Positions 9,889-31,965 of a DNA stretch of 64,000 nt are shown in pieces (position 1 is the stretch's first letter; each line of letters opens with the position of its first letter). The notes beneath the pieces were generated by a model. It did not search any database and was not told the DNA's origin. It saw only the letters and a program-made list of their open reading frames with translations. This stretch comes from Eledone cirrhosa. Its lineage: Eukaryota. The stretch lies in contig OZ024761.1 of NCBI GenBank assembly GCA_964016885.1, positions 27,342,001-27,406,000 on the forward strand, in the 5' to 3' direction. Position numbers and translations under genes: made by a program.

Positions 9889-10408
9889 ATAAATCAGGAA
9901 AGAAGAGTGACACGGTTTGCTATACAAAAAAGGATTTTAATCTCATTGCTGACAATTGTTTCTCTGAACTGGTAGGTCTAGAGATCGCTACCCGCTTATT
10001 TTCACGTTACTCGATCACCAATACAAAGTTATAACCAGTGAATTAATCGAAGCTTGTGAGTTCAATTCATCACAAGCTCCGATGAATTGACTGGTTATAA
10101 CTTTGTATTGGTGATGGAGTAGCGTGAAAATAAGCGGGTAGCAATCTCTAGACCTACCAGTTCAGAGAAACAATTGTCAGCAATGAGATTAAAATCCTTT
10201 TTTGTATAGCAAACCGTGTCACTCTTCTTTCCTGATTTATTATTACTCCAAGTGTTTACAACATAGGAATTACAGCGTACTCGCAGCATCACTATGGAAA
10301 CGCCTTGTTGAGTCAAACTTAGCCCAGCGTTGATATCATCCACTACCCGGAGTACCATAACTGGACTACACCTAAGTGGACTACCTATAACAATAATTTG
10401 TTACCCCG
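9889..10408 (+). mobile_element. Non-coding PLE-like fold-back element, family B
   Basis: ~170 bp inverted arms at 9889-10059 and 10070-10240 with a 10 nt spacer, then a unique tail at 10241-10408. Flanked by (TA)n. Confidence 0.8.
10064..10190 (+). ncRNA. Hammerhead-like motif, CCGATGA core, 81 nt stem II
   Basis: GCT CCGATGA [atTGACTGGT...ACCAGTTCAga] GAAA CAATTG TC AGC. Palindromic stem III ACAATTGT is typical of PLE minimal HHRs. The mirror copy in the left arm has a more degenerate core. Confidence 0.6.
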
Positions 10409-10426
10409 TATATATATATATCGTAC

Positions 10427-11010
10427 GAATCCATACGTACATATATATATGTGTGCATGTATGTATATATATACATACTACTGTACGTCTGTATACATAT
10501 ATGTATGTACGTATACATACTTATATTTAAGTAACAGCCGTACTAAGAGTGAGAAATGAAATTTCGTTTCATTTTTTCCGTTTATCGTTTTCGGTACCCC
10601 GGCCGATTAACTCACACGATATGCAAATTAGGCTGCTCATCCGTTAATATGCATAAGGAAAGTATATACTTTCAGACGTTCAACCATCTGGCAGGATGGT
10701 ATACGTTGCTGACGATAGCTAATAAGCTTGAAACTAGTACAGCGTTCCTTTGTCAGTGTTGAACAAATGAGCAACGATGGTTGCTAGACACTGTACGGCT
10801 TAATTCGGGATGTTTGTTTACAAAGACACCGAGCATTATAATAAATGTTCGGTGAATCCATACGTACATATATATATGTGTGCATGTATGTATATATATA
10901 TACATACTATTGTACGTCTGTATCCATATATGTATGTACGTATACATACTTATATTTAAGTAATAGCCGTACTAAGAGTGAGAAATGAAATTTCGTTTCA
11001 TTTTTTCCGT
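10427..11010 (+). mobile_element. Retrozyme-like partial tandem repeat, ~428 bp period
   Basis: ~155 bp direct repeats at 10427-10581 and 10854-11010 enclose a canonical HHR. No ORF. (TA)n on both sides. Confidence 0.7.
10703..10745 (+). ncRNA. Minimal type I hammerhead ribozyme
   Basis: ACGTTG CTGACGA tAGCTaataAGCTt GAAA CTAG TA CAGCGT. Intact core, 6 bp stem I, palindromic ACTAGT stem III, predicted cleavage after 10739. Confidence 0.88.
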
Positions 11011-11426
11011 ATATATATATATATATATATATATATATATATATATATATATATATATATATATATATTTATATATATATATATATATATATATATATAT
11101 ATATATATATATATATATATATATATATATATATATATATATATATATATTTATATATATATATATATATATATATATATATATATATATATATATATAT
11201 ATATATATATATACATATATATATATATATTTATATATATATATATATATATATATATATATACACACACACACACACATATATATATATATATATATAT
11301 ATATAGGAGGTGAGTTTTATTGTAGAACAATAAAACTATGCATATATCGGATAAGTAGCACTCAACAGTTTATTGAACTGGAGTATATATAAGAAGAAAT
11401 TAAAAGATGGTTAAAAAAGTTCCATA

Positions 11427-11497
11427 TATTTTATTATGCGCATTTCAAAAACAAATATCATCCTGGGACGATAGTTGCATACTCATCAGATAAAATA
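11427..11497 (-). ncRNA. Hammerhead ribozyme in the 3' pLTR of PLE 1
   Basis: Minus strand: TATTTTAT CTGATGA [g..gcaacTATCGTCccagGATGATAtttgt..t] GAAA TGCGCA TA ATAAAATA. Confidence 0.85.
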
Positions 11498-11889
11498 AGG
11501 TAACATGATATGATGCCTAAAAAAACACTTGTGAACAAGAAAGTGTCCAGTCAACATATGATAAAAAAATATAAAAGGAGAGAGAAGATTGGAAAAAAGA
11601 AGGAAGAGGGAAAAGGAAAAAGGAGAAGATAACGGAGGAAAAATTTAAGAAAGGAGGAGGAGAGAGATAGAGACTTTTAAACGGGAAACGCTGTCAAAAC
11701 TGAAAAACAGCTGTGAATAACGGCTGAAAAAATATATACGGCTACGAAATAAATAAATTAATACATTGATGAGGTTTATGATTGATGAGGTTTATGATTA
11801 CAGATATAGAAACTATGTATAATATTTATTTAGCGTTTATATACTAAACACAATTTATTTAGAGGTGTGAAAATGTATTATTAAAATAC

Positions 11890-12076
11890 GGTGGATTGGC
11901 AGTATCGGTAGAGAGTCGGACGCCATGCTTTCCAGCATAGTTAAGTCCCTTTACGGTCTGAGTTCAAATCCCGCCGAGGTTAACTTTGCCTTTCATCCTT
12001 ACGGGGTCGATAAAATAAAGTACCAGTAATGTACTGGATAATTACTGGCCTTGTGTCAAAAGTAGAAACAATTATT
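11890..12076 (+). mobile_element. tRNA-derived SINE inserted in the PLE 1 3' UTR
   Basis: Full-length copy, GGTGGATTGGCAG...AGTAGAAACAATTATT. Confidence 0.9.
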
Positions 12077-12794
12077 AAAATAAAATAAAATTAAATGATT
12101 TATAAGCGTAGAAGACAATATAATGTCATAGTTTGTTTAAATAGATGTAATTGAAAAATGTGAGAAAAATGTGTGAAGAGATATTAATGTGAAAAAAAAA
12201 GAAATATATATGTGTAGAAAAAAATAAATAAAAGTAGTCAAACCATGTCAAAAATTAAAAGTTTACTATTAAAAATTATAGATTATATATAAAAAAATAT
12301 AGATTATATATAAAAAAATTATATATGTGGGAAAACTATTTAAATATTCAAATATTAATTTAATCCACAAGTAAATAAAGGAAAATGTTATAATTATTTA
12401 AGCGTAGAAAAAAGCGTAGAAAAAGCGAAGAAAAAAAAAACGAAGAAGAAAACATATAATGTCATAATTTGTTTACAAAATCTACGAAGGTTTATACTGA
12501 AAAAATTTGATGTGATAAAGGAAGAAAAGTGAGCGACTTAAAAATAGTGAGAAAAAAGAATATAAAGAAACATTAAATATGAACTATTTAAATAATATTT
12601 TGTATCACCAAGTAGATAAATGAATTTGCTAGAGTGATTTAAAGCGTAGAAGACCATATAACGTCATAGTATGTTTAAAACTTTGTAGAATGTACTGCAA
12701 TATGCGAGAAAAAAAGCGTAAAAAGATATTTGTGTAAAAAAAATATATATGTGTAAAAAATGTTCACCTTATTCGTGGAATAAGATATAGGGTA

Positions 12795-30482: not shown

Positions 30483-30570
30483 TAAGCTTAGTAGGATTTG
30501 AACTCAGGACCTAGATTATCCTAAGAAATACTGTCTCACGCTCTACCGACTCTGCTAATTTCACGCCCTT
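30483..30570 (-). mobile_element. Degenerate SINE head
   Basis: GGATTTGAACTCAG...CTCTACCGACTCTGCTAAT. Confidence 0.55.
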
Positions 30571-30758
30571 GAATGGCAAATCATAAAATATTTGACATAT
30601 ATATATATATATATATATATATATATATATATATATATATATATATATATATATATATATATATATTATATATATATATATATATATATATATATATATA
30701 TATATATATATATATGTCAAATATTAATAAATGGAAACTATATTTATAAAACAATAAT

Positions 30759-30824
30759 TATTTTATTATATATATTTCAAGGGTAACCAAGGGAAATTAT
30801 GGTGCGCTTTCATCAGATAAAATA
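30759..30824 (-). ncRNA. Hammerhead ribozyme, family G (solo arm 30716-30940)
   Basis: Minus strand: TATTTTAT CTGATGA AAG..ACCA....TGGT..CTT GAAA TATATA TA ATAAAATA. Confidence 0.82.
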
Positions 30825-31145
30825 CAGATTTGTTTTATATCTAAATATTGACATACCCGGAAAAAAGACAACCTTAACGATTGAAGCTTCCTGCATATTT
30901 TTAAGCTTGTTGAATCCCAACAAATTAAATATAACCTCTGCATATATATATATATATATATATATATATATATAATATTAAAGATACTATTTATAATTAT
31001 GTATATACTATAAACAACTATAAACAGGGAAGGTCAGTAATATATTACTACCTTATTACCAGTAAGAGAAATAGCTCAATGTAAGAACATCAGGTGTTAG
31101 TAATAATATATGTTACATAAGTATCAAAGTTATGTTTAAATCATT

Positions 31146-31199
31146 TAATCGCTGACAATTGTTTCTTCCAAACTTAAGATTGACGTCCTCGGAGCATTA
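31146..31199 (-). ncRNA. Hammerhead-like motif, CCGAGGA core
   Basis: Minus strand: TAATGCT CCGAGGA ... GAAA CAATTG TC AGCGATTA. Stem II is partly decayed. Confidence 0.6.
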
Positions 31200-31911
31200 T
31201 CAATGTTTGTACATATAATTAACCTCCTATTCAACTAAAGAATCATACAGATACATATATATTGATGTTGTGGACAACAGTTTCATGTTTACAGGGTGGA
31301 ATGGATGCGACATATATTATATGAGAATTGTAGAATAATTCAAATTCAAATTCAAATTAAAAATTAAAAATTAAAAATTAAAAATTAAAAATTAAAAATT
31401 AAAAATTAAAAATAAAAGCACAGAGTTGAATACATGCGACAGATAATATAAGAGAATAGTCTAATAATTAAAGTGATAGTACATGCGTTAGTCATATATA
31501 AAGGAATTGGACAAGCCAATGTATTATGCACGTATGAGTACTGTGTGGCAAGGTATTACATAAAATGCAAGCACTTTAAGCGAATATGTTGTATTATGGG
31601 GGATGCAATGCGATGATGTTTTCTGTATAGTTCAAATTTGTATGTGTGTAGAATATGAGTTACAGATTTCACATCCATTACATATGTTAAGTTATATTTG
31701 TATTGAATGTTTGTTATAGTAATGGATTGTAACTTGGTGTTATTGTATTCATATTCATGGATTAGAGTTGTTCTACTGCGAGAATTTTCAACGGTTTAAT
31801 ATCCGGAAGTGGATATGGAATTAAGGGGAGCTAATGCGTAAGGGGAGGTAACTAGCTCATTATAATAATTAAATTCCTTGCTCAAATAGGCATTATATGT
31901 ACAAACATTGA

Positions 31912-31965
31912 TAATGCTCCGAGGAATCCAGGCTTAAGTTTGGAAGAAACAATTGTCAGCGATTA
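31912..31965 (+). ncRNA. Hammerhead-like motif, CCGAGGA core
   Basis: TAATGCT CCGAGGA aTCCAGGCttaaGTTTGGAa GAAA CAATTG TC AGCGATTA. Confidence 0.7.

What the first reader, a model, noticed from the sequence alone, without database searches (positions are those of the whole stretch)
10064..31965. CCGANGA (U4C) hammerhead cores in two different families
Seen: family B has CCGATGA (10079), with C at position 4 also in its mirror arm. Both arms of family F have CCGAGGA (31186-31192 minus, 31919 plus). Both families continue GAAA CAATTG TC AGC, but their stem II (81 vs 20 nt) and flanks differ. T>C creating a CpG is opposite to the usual decay direction. Inference: a lineage of PLE ribozymes with a fixed U4C core variant.
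Basis: partly seen in the sequence, partly recalled or inferred. Interest (0 to 1): 0.7.

Follow-up and report, generated by a model that had tools for sequence, protein, structure and literature searches.

The report
C4-core hammerheads, fixed twice in retroelements
Both repeats are the tail ends of Penelope-type jumping genes whose hammerhead RNA motif carries C instead of the textbook U in thousands of copies and in two separate lineages, and copies of a young relative that start right at the predicted cut site suggest that the altered motif likely still cuts, but rarely.

Summary
The cores are real, except that B's mirror arm keeps C4 in a broken core (TCGATTA). Both repeats are 3' ends of Hydra-clade Penelope-like elements, not Naiads.

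C4 is the family state: 1065 of 1208 short-stem copies, 93 of 100 listed B copies, and 99 of 100 listed copies of a young 2865-match family with open 832-codon frames. T4 copies occur at the rate of flanking CpG decay, while G5A is 3.6 times rarer.

It is not one lineage. B's protein groups with U4 families, and a single C4 clade is rejected (AU p=0.001).

In the young family, 15 arms start exactly at the predicted cut, against about 3 per nearby position; 1991 copies read through it. Likely reading: a slow, dimer- or protein-assisted ribozyme in elements copied mostly from uncut RNA. No cleavage was measured, and attenuation by C4 is not shown.

U4C is known from a viroid and from CYGANGA descriptors. 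This scan noted C4 Hydra cores before, in this and other genomes. One side result is unexplained: a one-strand mutation hot spot in the three bases after the core.

The parts
9889..10060 (-). Family B, inverted 5'-truncated arm ending in (TA)n
   Evidence: 97% identical over 172 nt to the 3' end of long copy L064; self-inverted match 9892-10237
9948..10053 (-). Family B mirror hammerhead, core TCGATTA (C4 kept, C3 and G8 changed), likely dead
10065..10409 (+). Family B forward arm with the longer 'tail' end
   Evidence: 94.6% identical to L064 over 386 nt including the TA run
10076..10181 (+). Family B type I hammerhead: GCT / CCGATGA / 81-nt stem II / GAAA CAATTG TC / AGC; predicted cut between 10178 and 10179
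   Evidence: 261 genomic matches, C4 in 93 of the 100 listed
30975..31898 (-). Family F long arm: 3' untranslated region, hammerhead and tail of a Hydra-clade element
   Evidence: 85% identical over about 800 nt to L241 and L067, which carry endonuclease remnants upstream
31151..31195 (-). Family F hammerhead, core CCGAGGA, stem II broken by changes in its 5' strand
31892..31998 (+). Family F short inverted arm
   Evidence: 95.3% identical to the other arm over 107 nt; all 5 differences lie in the first 7 nt of stem II
31916..31960 (+). Family F type I hammerhead, core CCGAGGA, 7-bp stem II, palindromic stem III; predicted cut between 31957 and 31958
14911..16540 (+). Comparison element: Hydra-clade RT/endonuclease remnant (14911-16005) followed by a U4 hammerhead (CTGACGA at 16428, 90-nt stem II, same CAATTG); in the clade sister to B in the protein tree

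Best explanation
Both repeats are 5'-truncated, mirror-image ends of Hydra-clade Penelope-like retrotransposons, and the motif is their type I hammerhead with C4 fixed in two separate lineages, which likely cuts the element's RNA only rarely and likely needs a second copy or the element's protein to do so. Shown: the fold anatomy (stem I with an outer helix, stem II, a self-complementary stem III); C4 as family state; linkage to RT plus C-terminal endonuclease; at least two changes at position 4 on the protein tree; about 99% of young copies read through the cut site and under 1% start at it. Inferred: reverse transcription starts 40-250 nt downstream of the cut, so any copy that spans the cut came from RNA uncut at that ribozyme (or cut and re-joined into a circle). 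Slow cutting is therefore affordable or useful. The core stays under selection in source elements (G5A rare, stems covary). Position 4 tolerates C, and T4 copies are mostly CpG decay. Whether C4 is favoured or merely tolerated is open.
For: C4 in 1065 of 1208, 93 of 100 listed of 261 in B, and 99 of 100 listed of 2865 in the young family Y. Y has hammerheads about 4.2 kb apart around an 832-codon open frame in 4 of 7 tandem loci fetched; 36 of 150 scored endonuclease hits lie in such frames. Flank CpG decay is 48 of 352 C>T and 57 of 409 G>A; in the core it is T4 143 and A5 40 of 1248. On 12 real copies, 89.8% of cells pair, 5 pairs change on both sides, and 3 of 500 shuffles reach the covariation score. 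Stem III changes from CAATTG to CAGCTG and stays palindromic; the dimer helix is -6.4 and -11.1 kcal/mol. In Y, 15 arms at 13 loci start at +1 after the cut, against 2 at -1/-2 together, 4, 2 and 2 at +2 to +4, and 5, 4 and 6 at control positions; Poisson p 1e-6 by arms, 2e-5 by loci. The hammerhead of a Poseidon element cuts only with its protein and is not needed for insertion in vitro (PMC11167929).
Against: No cleavage was measured. Single mutants of the CUGA turn had low activity in a mutational scan of another hammerhead (PMC9901934, passages), and U4C lowers activity considerably in vitro (PMC3088659). The start-at-cut peak is clear only in Y, which is not one of the two window families. 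In B, 10 of 30 loci examined start between -2 and +1 (4 unambiguous) against 6 at +3/+4; in F, 3 of 3 matches are point mutants. Junction microhomology blurs starts by one base, and an RT stop at the structured core could mimic the peak. The U4 comparison family shows a similar low rate (1-2 candidates against 280 read-throughs), so attenuation by C4 is not shown. Single flank CpGs are often lopsided (15:6, 1:15), which weakens the 143:40 argument. C3T (24) and G8A (36) are only slightly below flank non-CpG rates. Core-damaged states are sometimes shared by both arms or tandem copies (L076, L086/L087, L109/L110). Monomer folds are not more stable than shuffles in 5 of 6 copies folded (z between +0.9 and -1.8).
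Confidence: 0.65

Rival explanations
1. The C4 motif no longer cuts. It is kept as a folded landmark, for example for protein binding or for positioning reverse transcription, and starts at the 'cut' are polymerase stops at the structured core.
For: About 99% of Y copies read through the site. Catalysis is not needed for insertion in vitro in a Poseidon element. CUGA mutants are weak. Some damaged cores are shared by both arms.
Against: The peak lies on the first base after the scissile bond, with a deficit just upstream, and both arms start there at two loci. Core bases, A15.1-U16.1, a non-G at position 17 and the palindrome are kept across proteins only 50% identical.
Confidence: 0.17
2. C4 is actively favoured: two lineages converged on a detuned ribozyme because fast cutting removes the downstream start site of reverse transcription.
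For: Two changes on the tree. C4 persists through many subfamilies although it sits in a CpG that decays about three times faster than other C/G sites. Earlier scan notes report C4 Hydra families in other genomes (not checked here).
Against: One gain plus one reversion, or exchange of 3' ends between families, fits the tree equally; B shares stem I and the stem III side letter for letter with F. T4 copies cluster with each other more than chance (p=0.008), so T4 sources may have spread too. U4 and C4 families show similar start-at-cut rates.
Confidence: 0.13
3. One reading: one lineage of Naiad-linked ribozymes with a single U4C origin.
For: Shared GCT, CAATTG TC AGC and (TA)n targets in B and F.
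Against: C-terminal endonuclease with Hydra motifs; one C4 clade rejected (AU p=0.0011; p=0.0002). A single origin survives only as gain plus reversion or 3'-end exchange.
Confidence: 0.05

Closest known systems
Hydra clade of Penelope-like elements (Craig et al. 2021, PMC8557442; passages, section 11, supplement parts 1-2 of 59 and one supplement search seen)
   Same: C-terminal GIY-YIG-type endonuclease, DKT, CxCX5C linker, CxxC and CxH, (TA)n targets, inverted 5'-truncated copies with tails, hammerhead in the pseudo-LTR; a mismatch at the base of stem II is common in their table too.
   Different: All 26 Hydra rows of File S2 have a CTGA core (found with a canonical descriptor, so C4 could have been missed). 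The unit here is about 4.2 kb against under 3 kb, the motif reads RWR rather than RWK, and B has an 81-nt stem II.
Minimal type I hammerheads of metazoan PLEs (Cervera and de la Pena 2014, PMC4209133; parts 1-2 of 4 read)
   Same: 7-bp stem II, short inner stem I, small palindromic stem III predicted to need a dimer, close inverted pairs, high variability among copies.
   Different: The core variant they report is U3-A8, not C4; they note a highly conserved G10.1-C11.1 pair, whereas here 11.1 is mostly A facing U, C or A.
Natural U4C hammerhead of a viroid (Ambros and Flores 1998, seen only as cited in Perreault et al. 2011, PMC3088659; passages and section 8 read) and CYGANGA descriptors (PMC13481778; passages)
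   Same: The same core change, described as much slower in vitro yet sufficient in vivo; C/U variation at this position is reported in viral hammerheads.
Poseidon element PAc of Anolis (Frangieh et al. 2024, PMC11167929; parts 1-2 of 4 read)
   Same: Two 3' ends (short and tail) downstream of the hammerhead; most cDNA comes from uncut RNA.
   Different: Other clade; there the open frame overlaps the ribozyme and no RNA reads ended at the cut. Here it lies about 230 nt upstream of the frame, and a few genomic copies start at the cut.

Membership tests
Type I hammerhead ribozyme | Three stems around the core in type I order | tested here: met
   stem III is 2 bp as a monomer, 8 bp as a predicted dimer
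Type I hammerhead ribozyme | C3, G5, A6, G8, A9, G12-A14, A15.1-U16.1, H17 | tested here: met
   invariant in alignment A1 except position 17 (C or A); broken in B's mirror arm
Type I hammerhead ribozyme | U4 | tested here: not met
   C4 in 88-99% of copies; a known tolerated variant
Type I hammerhead ribozyme | Site-specific self-cleavage | not testable with these tools
   indirect only: starts at the cut in family Y
Hydra-clade PLE | Single frame, RT then C-terminal endonuclease | tested here: met
   832-codon frame in Y; remnants upstream of B- and F-type ribozymes
Hydra-clade PLE | DKT, RWK, CxCX5C linker, CxxC and CxH | tested here: met
   Y and short-stem relatives: DKT, RWR, CNCRANRTC, CNLC, CQH; B: CNCHLPDRC, CRLC, CRH; B's DKT and RWK region was not read
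Hydra-clade PLE | No CCHH motif in the endonuclease | tested here: inconclusive
   judged by eye only, no alignment with reference endonucleases
Hydra-clade PLE | Insertion into (TA)n, pseudo-LTRs, inverted truncated copies | tested here: met
Hydra-clade PLE | Phylogenetic placement among published Hydra proteins | not tested
   published sequences were not loaded; Pfam gave no useful hit for 4 proteins
Naiad | Endonuclease N-terminal to RT | tested here: not met
   the endonuclease follows RT (definition)
Non-LTR retrozyme | Short non-coding tandem units with a hammerhead | tested here: not met
   units are coding and about 4.2 kb; window copies are truncated inverted pairs

The most novel reading that the evidence does not exclude
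Active Hydra retroelements converged on the same 'forbidden' core letter to detune a ribozyme that still cuts in the germ line, and the three bases after its core are a one-strand mutation hot spot in genomic DNA, about five times the flank rate and growing with age, because the element's own protein or a host factor keeps acting on that site after insertion.
Probability: 0.2. Interest if true: 0.78.

Novelty: new variant of a known kind. Interest (0 to 1): 0.5.

Why it matters
What hammerheads do in Penelope-like elements is an open question. A young family with many open full-length frames and a core letter known to slow cleavage, together with U4 sister families in the same genome, gives a ready natural comparison: C4 against U4 in cleavage and retrotransposition assays. 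Searches that demand CUGANGA would miss over 4000 matches here. The localised hot spot offers a handle on the high variability of PLE hammerheads that Cervera and de la Pena noted without an explanation.

Tried and rejected
Expression: no RNA holder was listed. Laying contigs of guessed RNA runs covered only a simple repeat or nothing, so there is no evidence either way; the two likely DNA runs gave no usable per-site variant table.

Other organisms: 0 exact matches in metagenome contigs, which says nothing about animals.

T4 as selected reversion: I first read 143 T4 against 40 A5 this way and dropped it when flank CpGs showed about 14% decay on both sides. T4 clustering (p=0.008; none for A5, T3 or A8) may reflect shared methylation as well as descent.

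Hot spot as reverse-transcription error: a first test against divergence from subfamily majority showed no age trend (rho -0.03, 203 copies). The better arm-against-arm test did (rho 0.48, p=7e-4, 46 pairs), so I rejected it. Hairpin-templated correction did not fit the spectrum in all subfamilies (by eye).

Tree test: the first AU test is invalid because it forced an unlabelled short-stem row out of the group. One search includes a row whose link to its U4 motif is only assumed; one search is the one I rely on.

Structure count: one search used a mis-registered structure; one search is the corrected one.

A loose genome-wide U4 pattern (228,629 matches, controls 79,176) was too noisy to count families. 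An unconstrained-core count for the main short-stem subfamily was not obtained.

Lunse et al. 2017 and Ambros and Flores 1998 were not held, so C4 variants in Lunse cannot be excluded.
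Full report
Observation. The three intact cores are at the stated places, with 81-nt and 20-nt stem II regions and the shared GAAA CAATTG TC AGC. B's mirror arm keeps C4 but reads TCGATTA, so it is damaged at C3 and G8. Each family is an inverted pair ending in (TA)n, one arm short and one with a longer tail. The genome G000 is a 3.0-Gb, microsatellite-rich assembly. Earlier scan notes call it octopus-type; I did not check this.

How common C4 is. The short-stem pattern with C or T at position 4 has 1208 exact matches (reversed control 0). Of these 143 have T, so 1065 have C. Family B with the core left free has 261 matches; in the 100 listed, C4 93, T4 6, A4 1. Allowing other stem III palindromes revealed a younger group, Y, with 2865 matches; 99 of the 100 listed have C4.

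T4 is the derived state. Outside the ribozyme, CpG sites in 193 aligned short-stem copies change C>T in 48 of 352 and G>A in 57 of 409 cells, against 4.0% and 5.0% at other C and G. That sample includes loci picked for core changes and counts inherited variants. T4 (143 of 1248, 11.5%) matches this decay. G5A, the same CpG on the other strand, is 40 of 1248, close to C3T (24) and G8A (36). I read this as selection against G5A in source elements and tolerance of C or U at position 4. It is moderate evidence, because single flank CpGs are often lopsided.

The element. Upstream of B- and F-type ribozymes lie remnants of RT followed by an endonuclease. The window's F arm is 85% identical over about 800 nt to such loci. 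Y is complete: two hammerheads about 4.2 kb apart around an 832-codon open frame in 4 of 7 tandem loci fetched, and 36 of 150 scored endonuclease hits lie in frames of that length. DKT, RWR, CxCX5C, CxxC and CxH match the Hydra description of Craig et al.. Naiads have the endonuclease first and lack canonical hammerheads. All 26 Hydra rows in their File S2 have CTGA.

Not one lineage. B and Y proteins are 50% identical over 535 columns; B and the U4 family at window 16428 are 56% identical over 413. B groups at 100/99 with three long-stem families that have U4: the window family (22 of 22 cores in the 20 best loci) and L229 and L089 (one or two copies each). With the U4 family L124/L040 as outgroup, one C4 clade is rejected (AU p=0.0011, 12 rows; the outgroup branch is long). 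Two changes are needed: two gains, or a gain and a reversion. Exchange of 3' ends would also do.

Structure. On 12 real short-stem copies the type I fold with an outer stem I pairs in 89.8% of cells, at most 48.5% when slid, with 5 pairs changed on both sides; 3 of 500 shuffles reach the covariation score, a figure that is not a probability. Stem III stays self-complementary when it changes (CAATTG, CAGCTG; dimer helix -6.4 and -11.1 kcal/mol). In B, a T-to-C variant in 12 of 100 listed copies turns a U-G pair of stem II into C-G (pairing read by eye). Monomer folds are weak: only 1 of 6 copies clearly beats its shuffles. This fits the dimer model for PLE hammerheads.

A trace of cutting. If the RNA is cut, some cDNAs should end at the cut. 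In Y, 15 arms at 13 loci begin on the first base after the predicted cut. At two of these loci both arms begin there, and one copy runs on into the open frame for at least 1.5 kb. Neighbouring positions have 2 (-1 and -2 together), 4, 2 and 2; two small deletions were set aside from the 27 rows. Three control positions 16-18 nt upstream have 5, 4 and 6. Poisson p is 1e-6 by arms and 2e-5 by loci. Against this, 1991 copies read through. In B the picture is only suggestive (10 of 30 loci examined, of 32 matches, start between -2 and +1, 4 of them unambiguously; 6 start at +3 or +4), and in F none of 3 matches is a start. The U4 family has 280 read-throughs and 5 odd rows, 1-2 of them possible starts, not examined further. 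So cutting by a C4 core is likely in Y, but slowing by C4 is not shown. I ran the Y search before seeing scan notes that describe the same kind of footprint in other families.

Mechanism. Shown: anatomy, fixation, linkage, read-through. Inferred: reverse transcription starts downstream of the ribozyme, as in PAc, where the ribozyme cuts only with protein and is not needed for insertion. Most templates are therefore uncut or re-joined, and a slow ribozyme costs little. U4C slows cleavage in vitro but supported a viroid in vivo; CUGA mutants were weak in a mutational scan.

Hot spot, unexplained. The two arms of one insertion differ at the three bases after A9 in 39 of 126 cells in 42 older pairs, against 6.1% in flanks, 38 of 714 in the rest of stem II and 2 of 126 at their pairing partners. 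In 15 young pairs the figure is 4 of 45 against 2.1%. The rate rises with arm divergence (rho 0.48, 46 pairs of at least 100 nt; per-site counts). These sites were not fixed by my patterns, though many loci were chosen for core changes. It looks like a process acting on one strand of genomic DNA after insertion. It is weak or absent in B.

Known and new. C at position 4 is a known natural variant and is allowed by CYGANGA descriptors. Nine paper searches found no report of C4 fixed in PLE families, but Lunse et al. 2017 could not be read and only 2 of 59 parts of Craig's supplement were read. The scan has noted C4 Hydra cores before, in this genome and in four notes from other genomes; I tested only this genome. 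Added here: the two-origin tree test, the start-at-cut peak in a C4 family, and the hot spot.

Papers seen: PMC8557442 passages, section 11, supplement parts 1-2 and one search; PMC4209133 parts 1-2 of 4; PMC3088659 passages and section 8; PMC11167929 parts 1-2 of 4; bioRxiv 2026.07.22.740005 part 1 of 5; passages only of PMC6765202, PMC9901934, PMC13481778, PMC7229834, PMC3907566 and PMC11014351. The numbering of core positions follows the standard scheme as recalled and as used in those papers.

Verdict: real, a new variant of a known kind, interest 0.5.

Noticed in passing
window 31926-31928 and 31185-31183; 57 arm pairs in fetched loci: One-strand mutation hot spot in the three bases after A9 (5' strand of stem II), about five times the flank rate, rising with age; small indels also seem to gather there.
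   Followed up: partly
L315-L321, L355-L384 (G000:C1:62775000-62781000 and others): Very young Hydra family Y, about 4.2-kb unit, many open 832-codon frames, C4 core, CAGCTG palindrome, A at position 17.
   Followed up: yes
window 14640-16590: Young Hydra family with a U4 core and a 90-nt stem II; near-identical copies genome-wide (1098 candidates).
   Followed up: partly
window 12828-14529 (minus) and 11432-11492 (minus): Another Hydra-type RT/endonuclease remnant, and 1.3 kb downstream a U4 hammerhead-like motif with a TGCGCA palindrome that is very frequent in the genome; linkage not verified.
   Followed up: partly
window 38130-38330 (+) and 41199-41335 (-): Two diverged copies (74% alike) of a repeat with GAAAC..GT A hammerhead halves and a long predicted insert; the minus copy has CTGAGGA at 41329.
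   Followed up: no
window 10706-10742: Compact hammerhead-like match TTG CTGACGA, 14 nt, GAAA CTAG TA CAG.
   Followed up: no
L184 (G000:C6:15353781): B-family copy with most of the 81-nt stem II deleted and T4.
   Followed up: no
L144, L196, L225: One arm has T4 and the other A5, which means C>T on the same genomic strand in both arms and hints at locus- or strand-specific CpG decay.
   Followed up: no
L077 1-1372 (minus): A different PLE with a DKG motif (Penelope/Neptune type) next to Hydra ends; many loci also hold LINE RT fragments.
   Followed up: no
window 3343-3908 with 55226-55786; 17178-17466 with 22123-22411; 39097-39313; 50629-52542: Other dispersed, direct and fold-back repeats (83-99% alike), plus a ~190-nt repeat family in many copies.
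   Followed up: no
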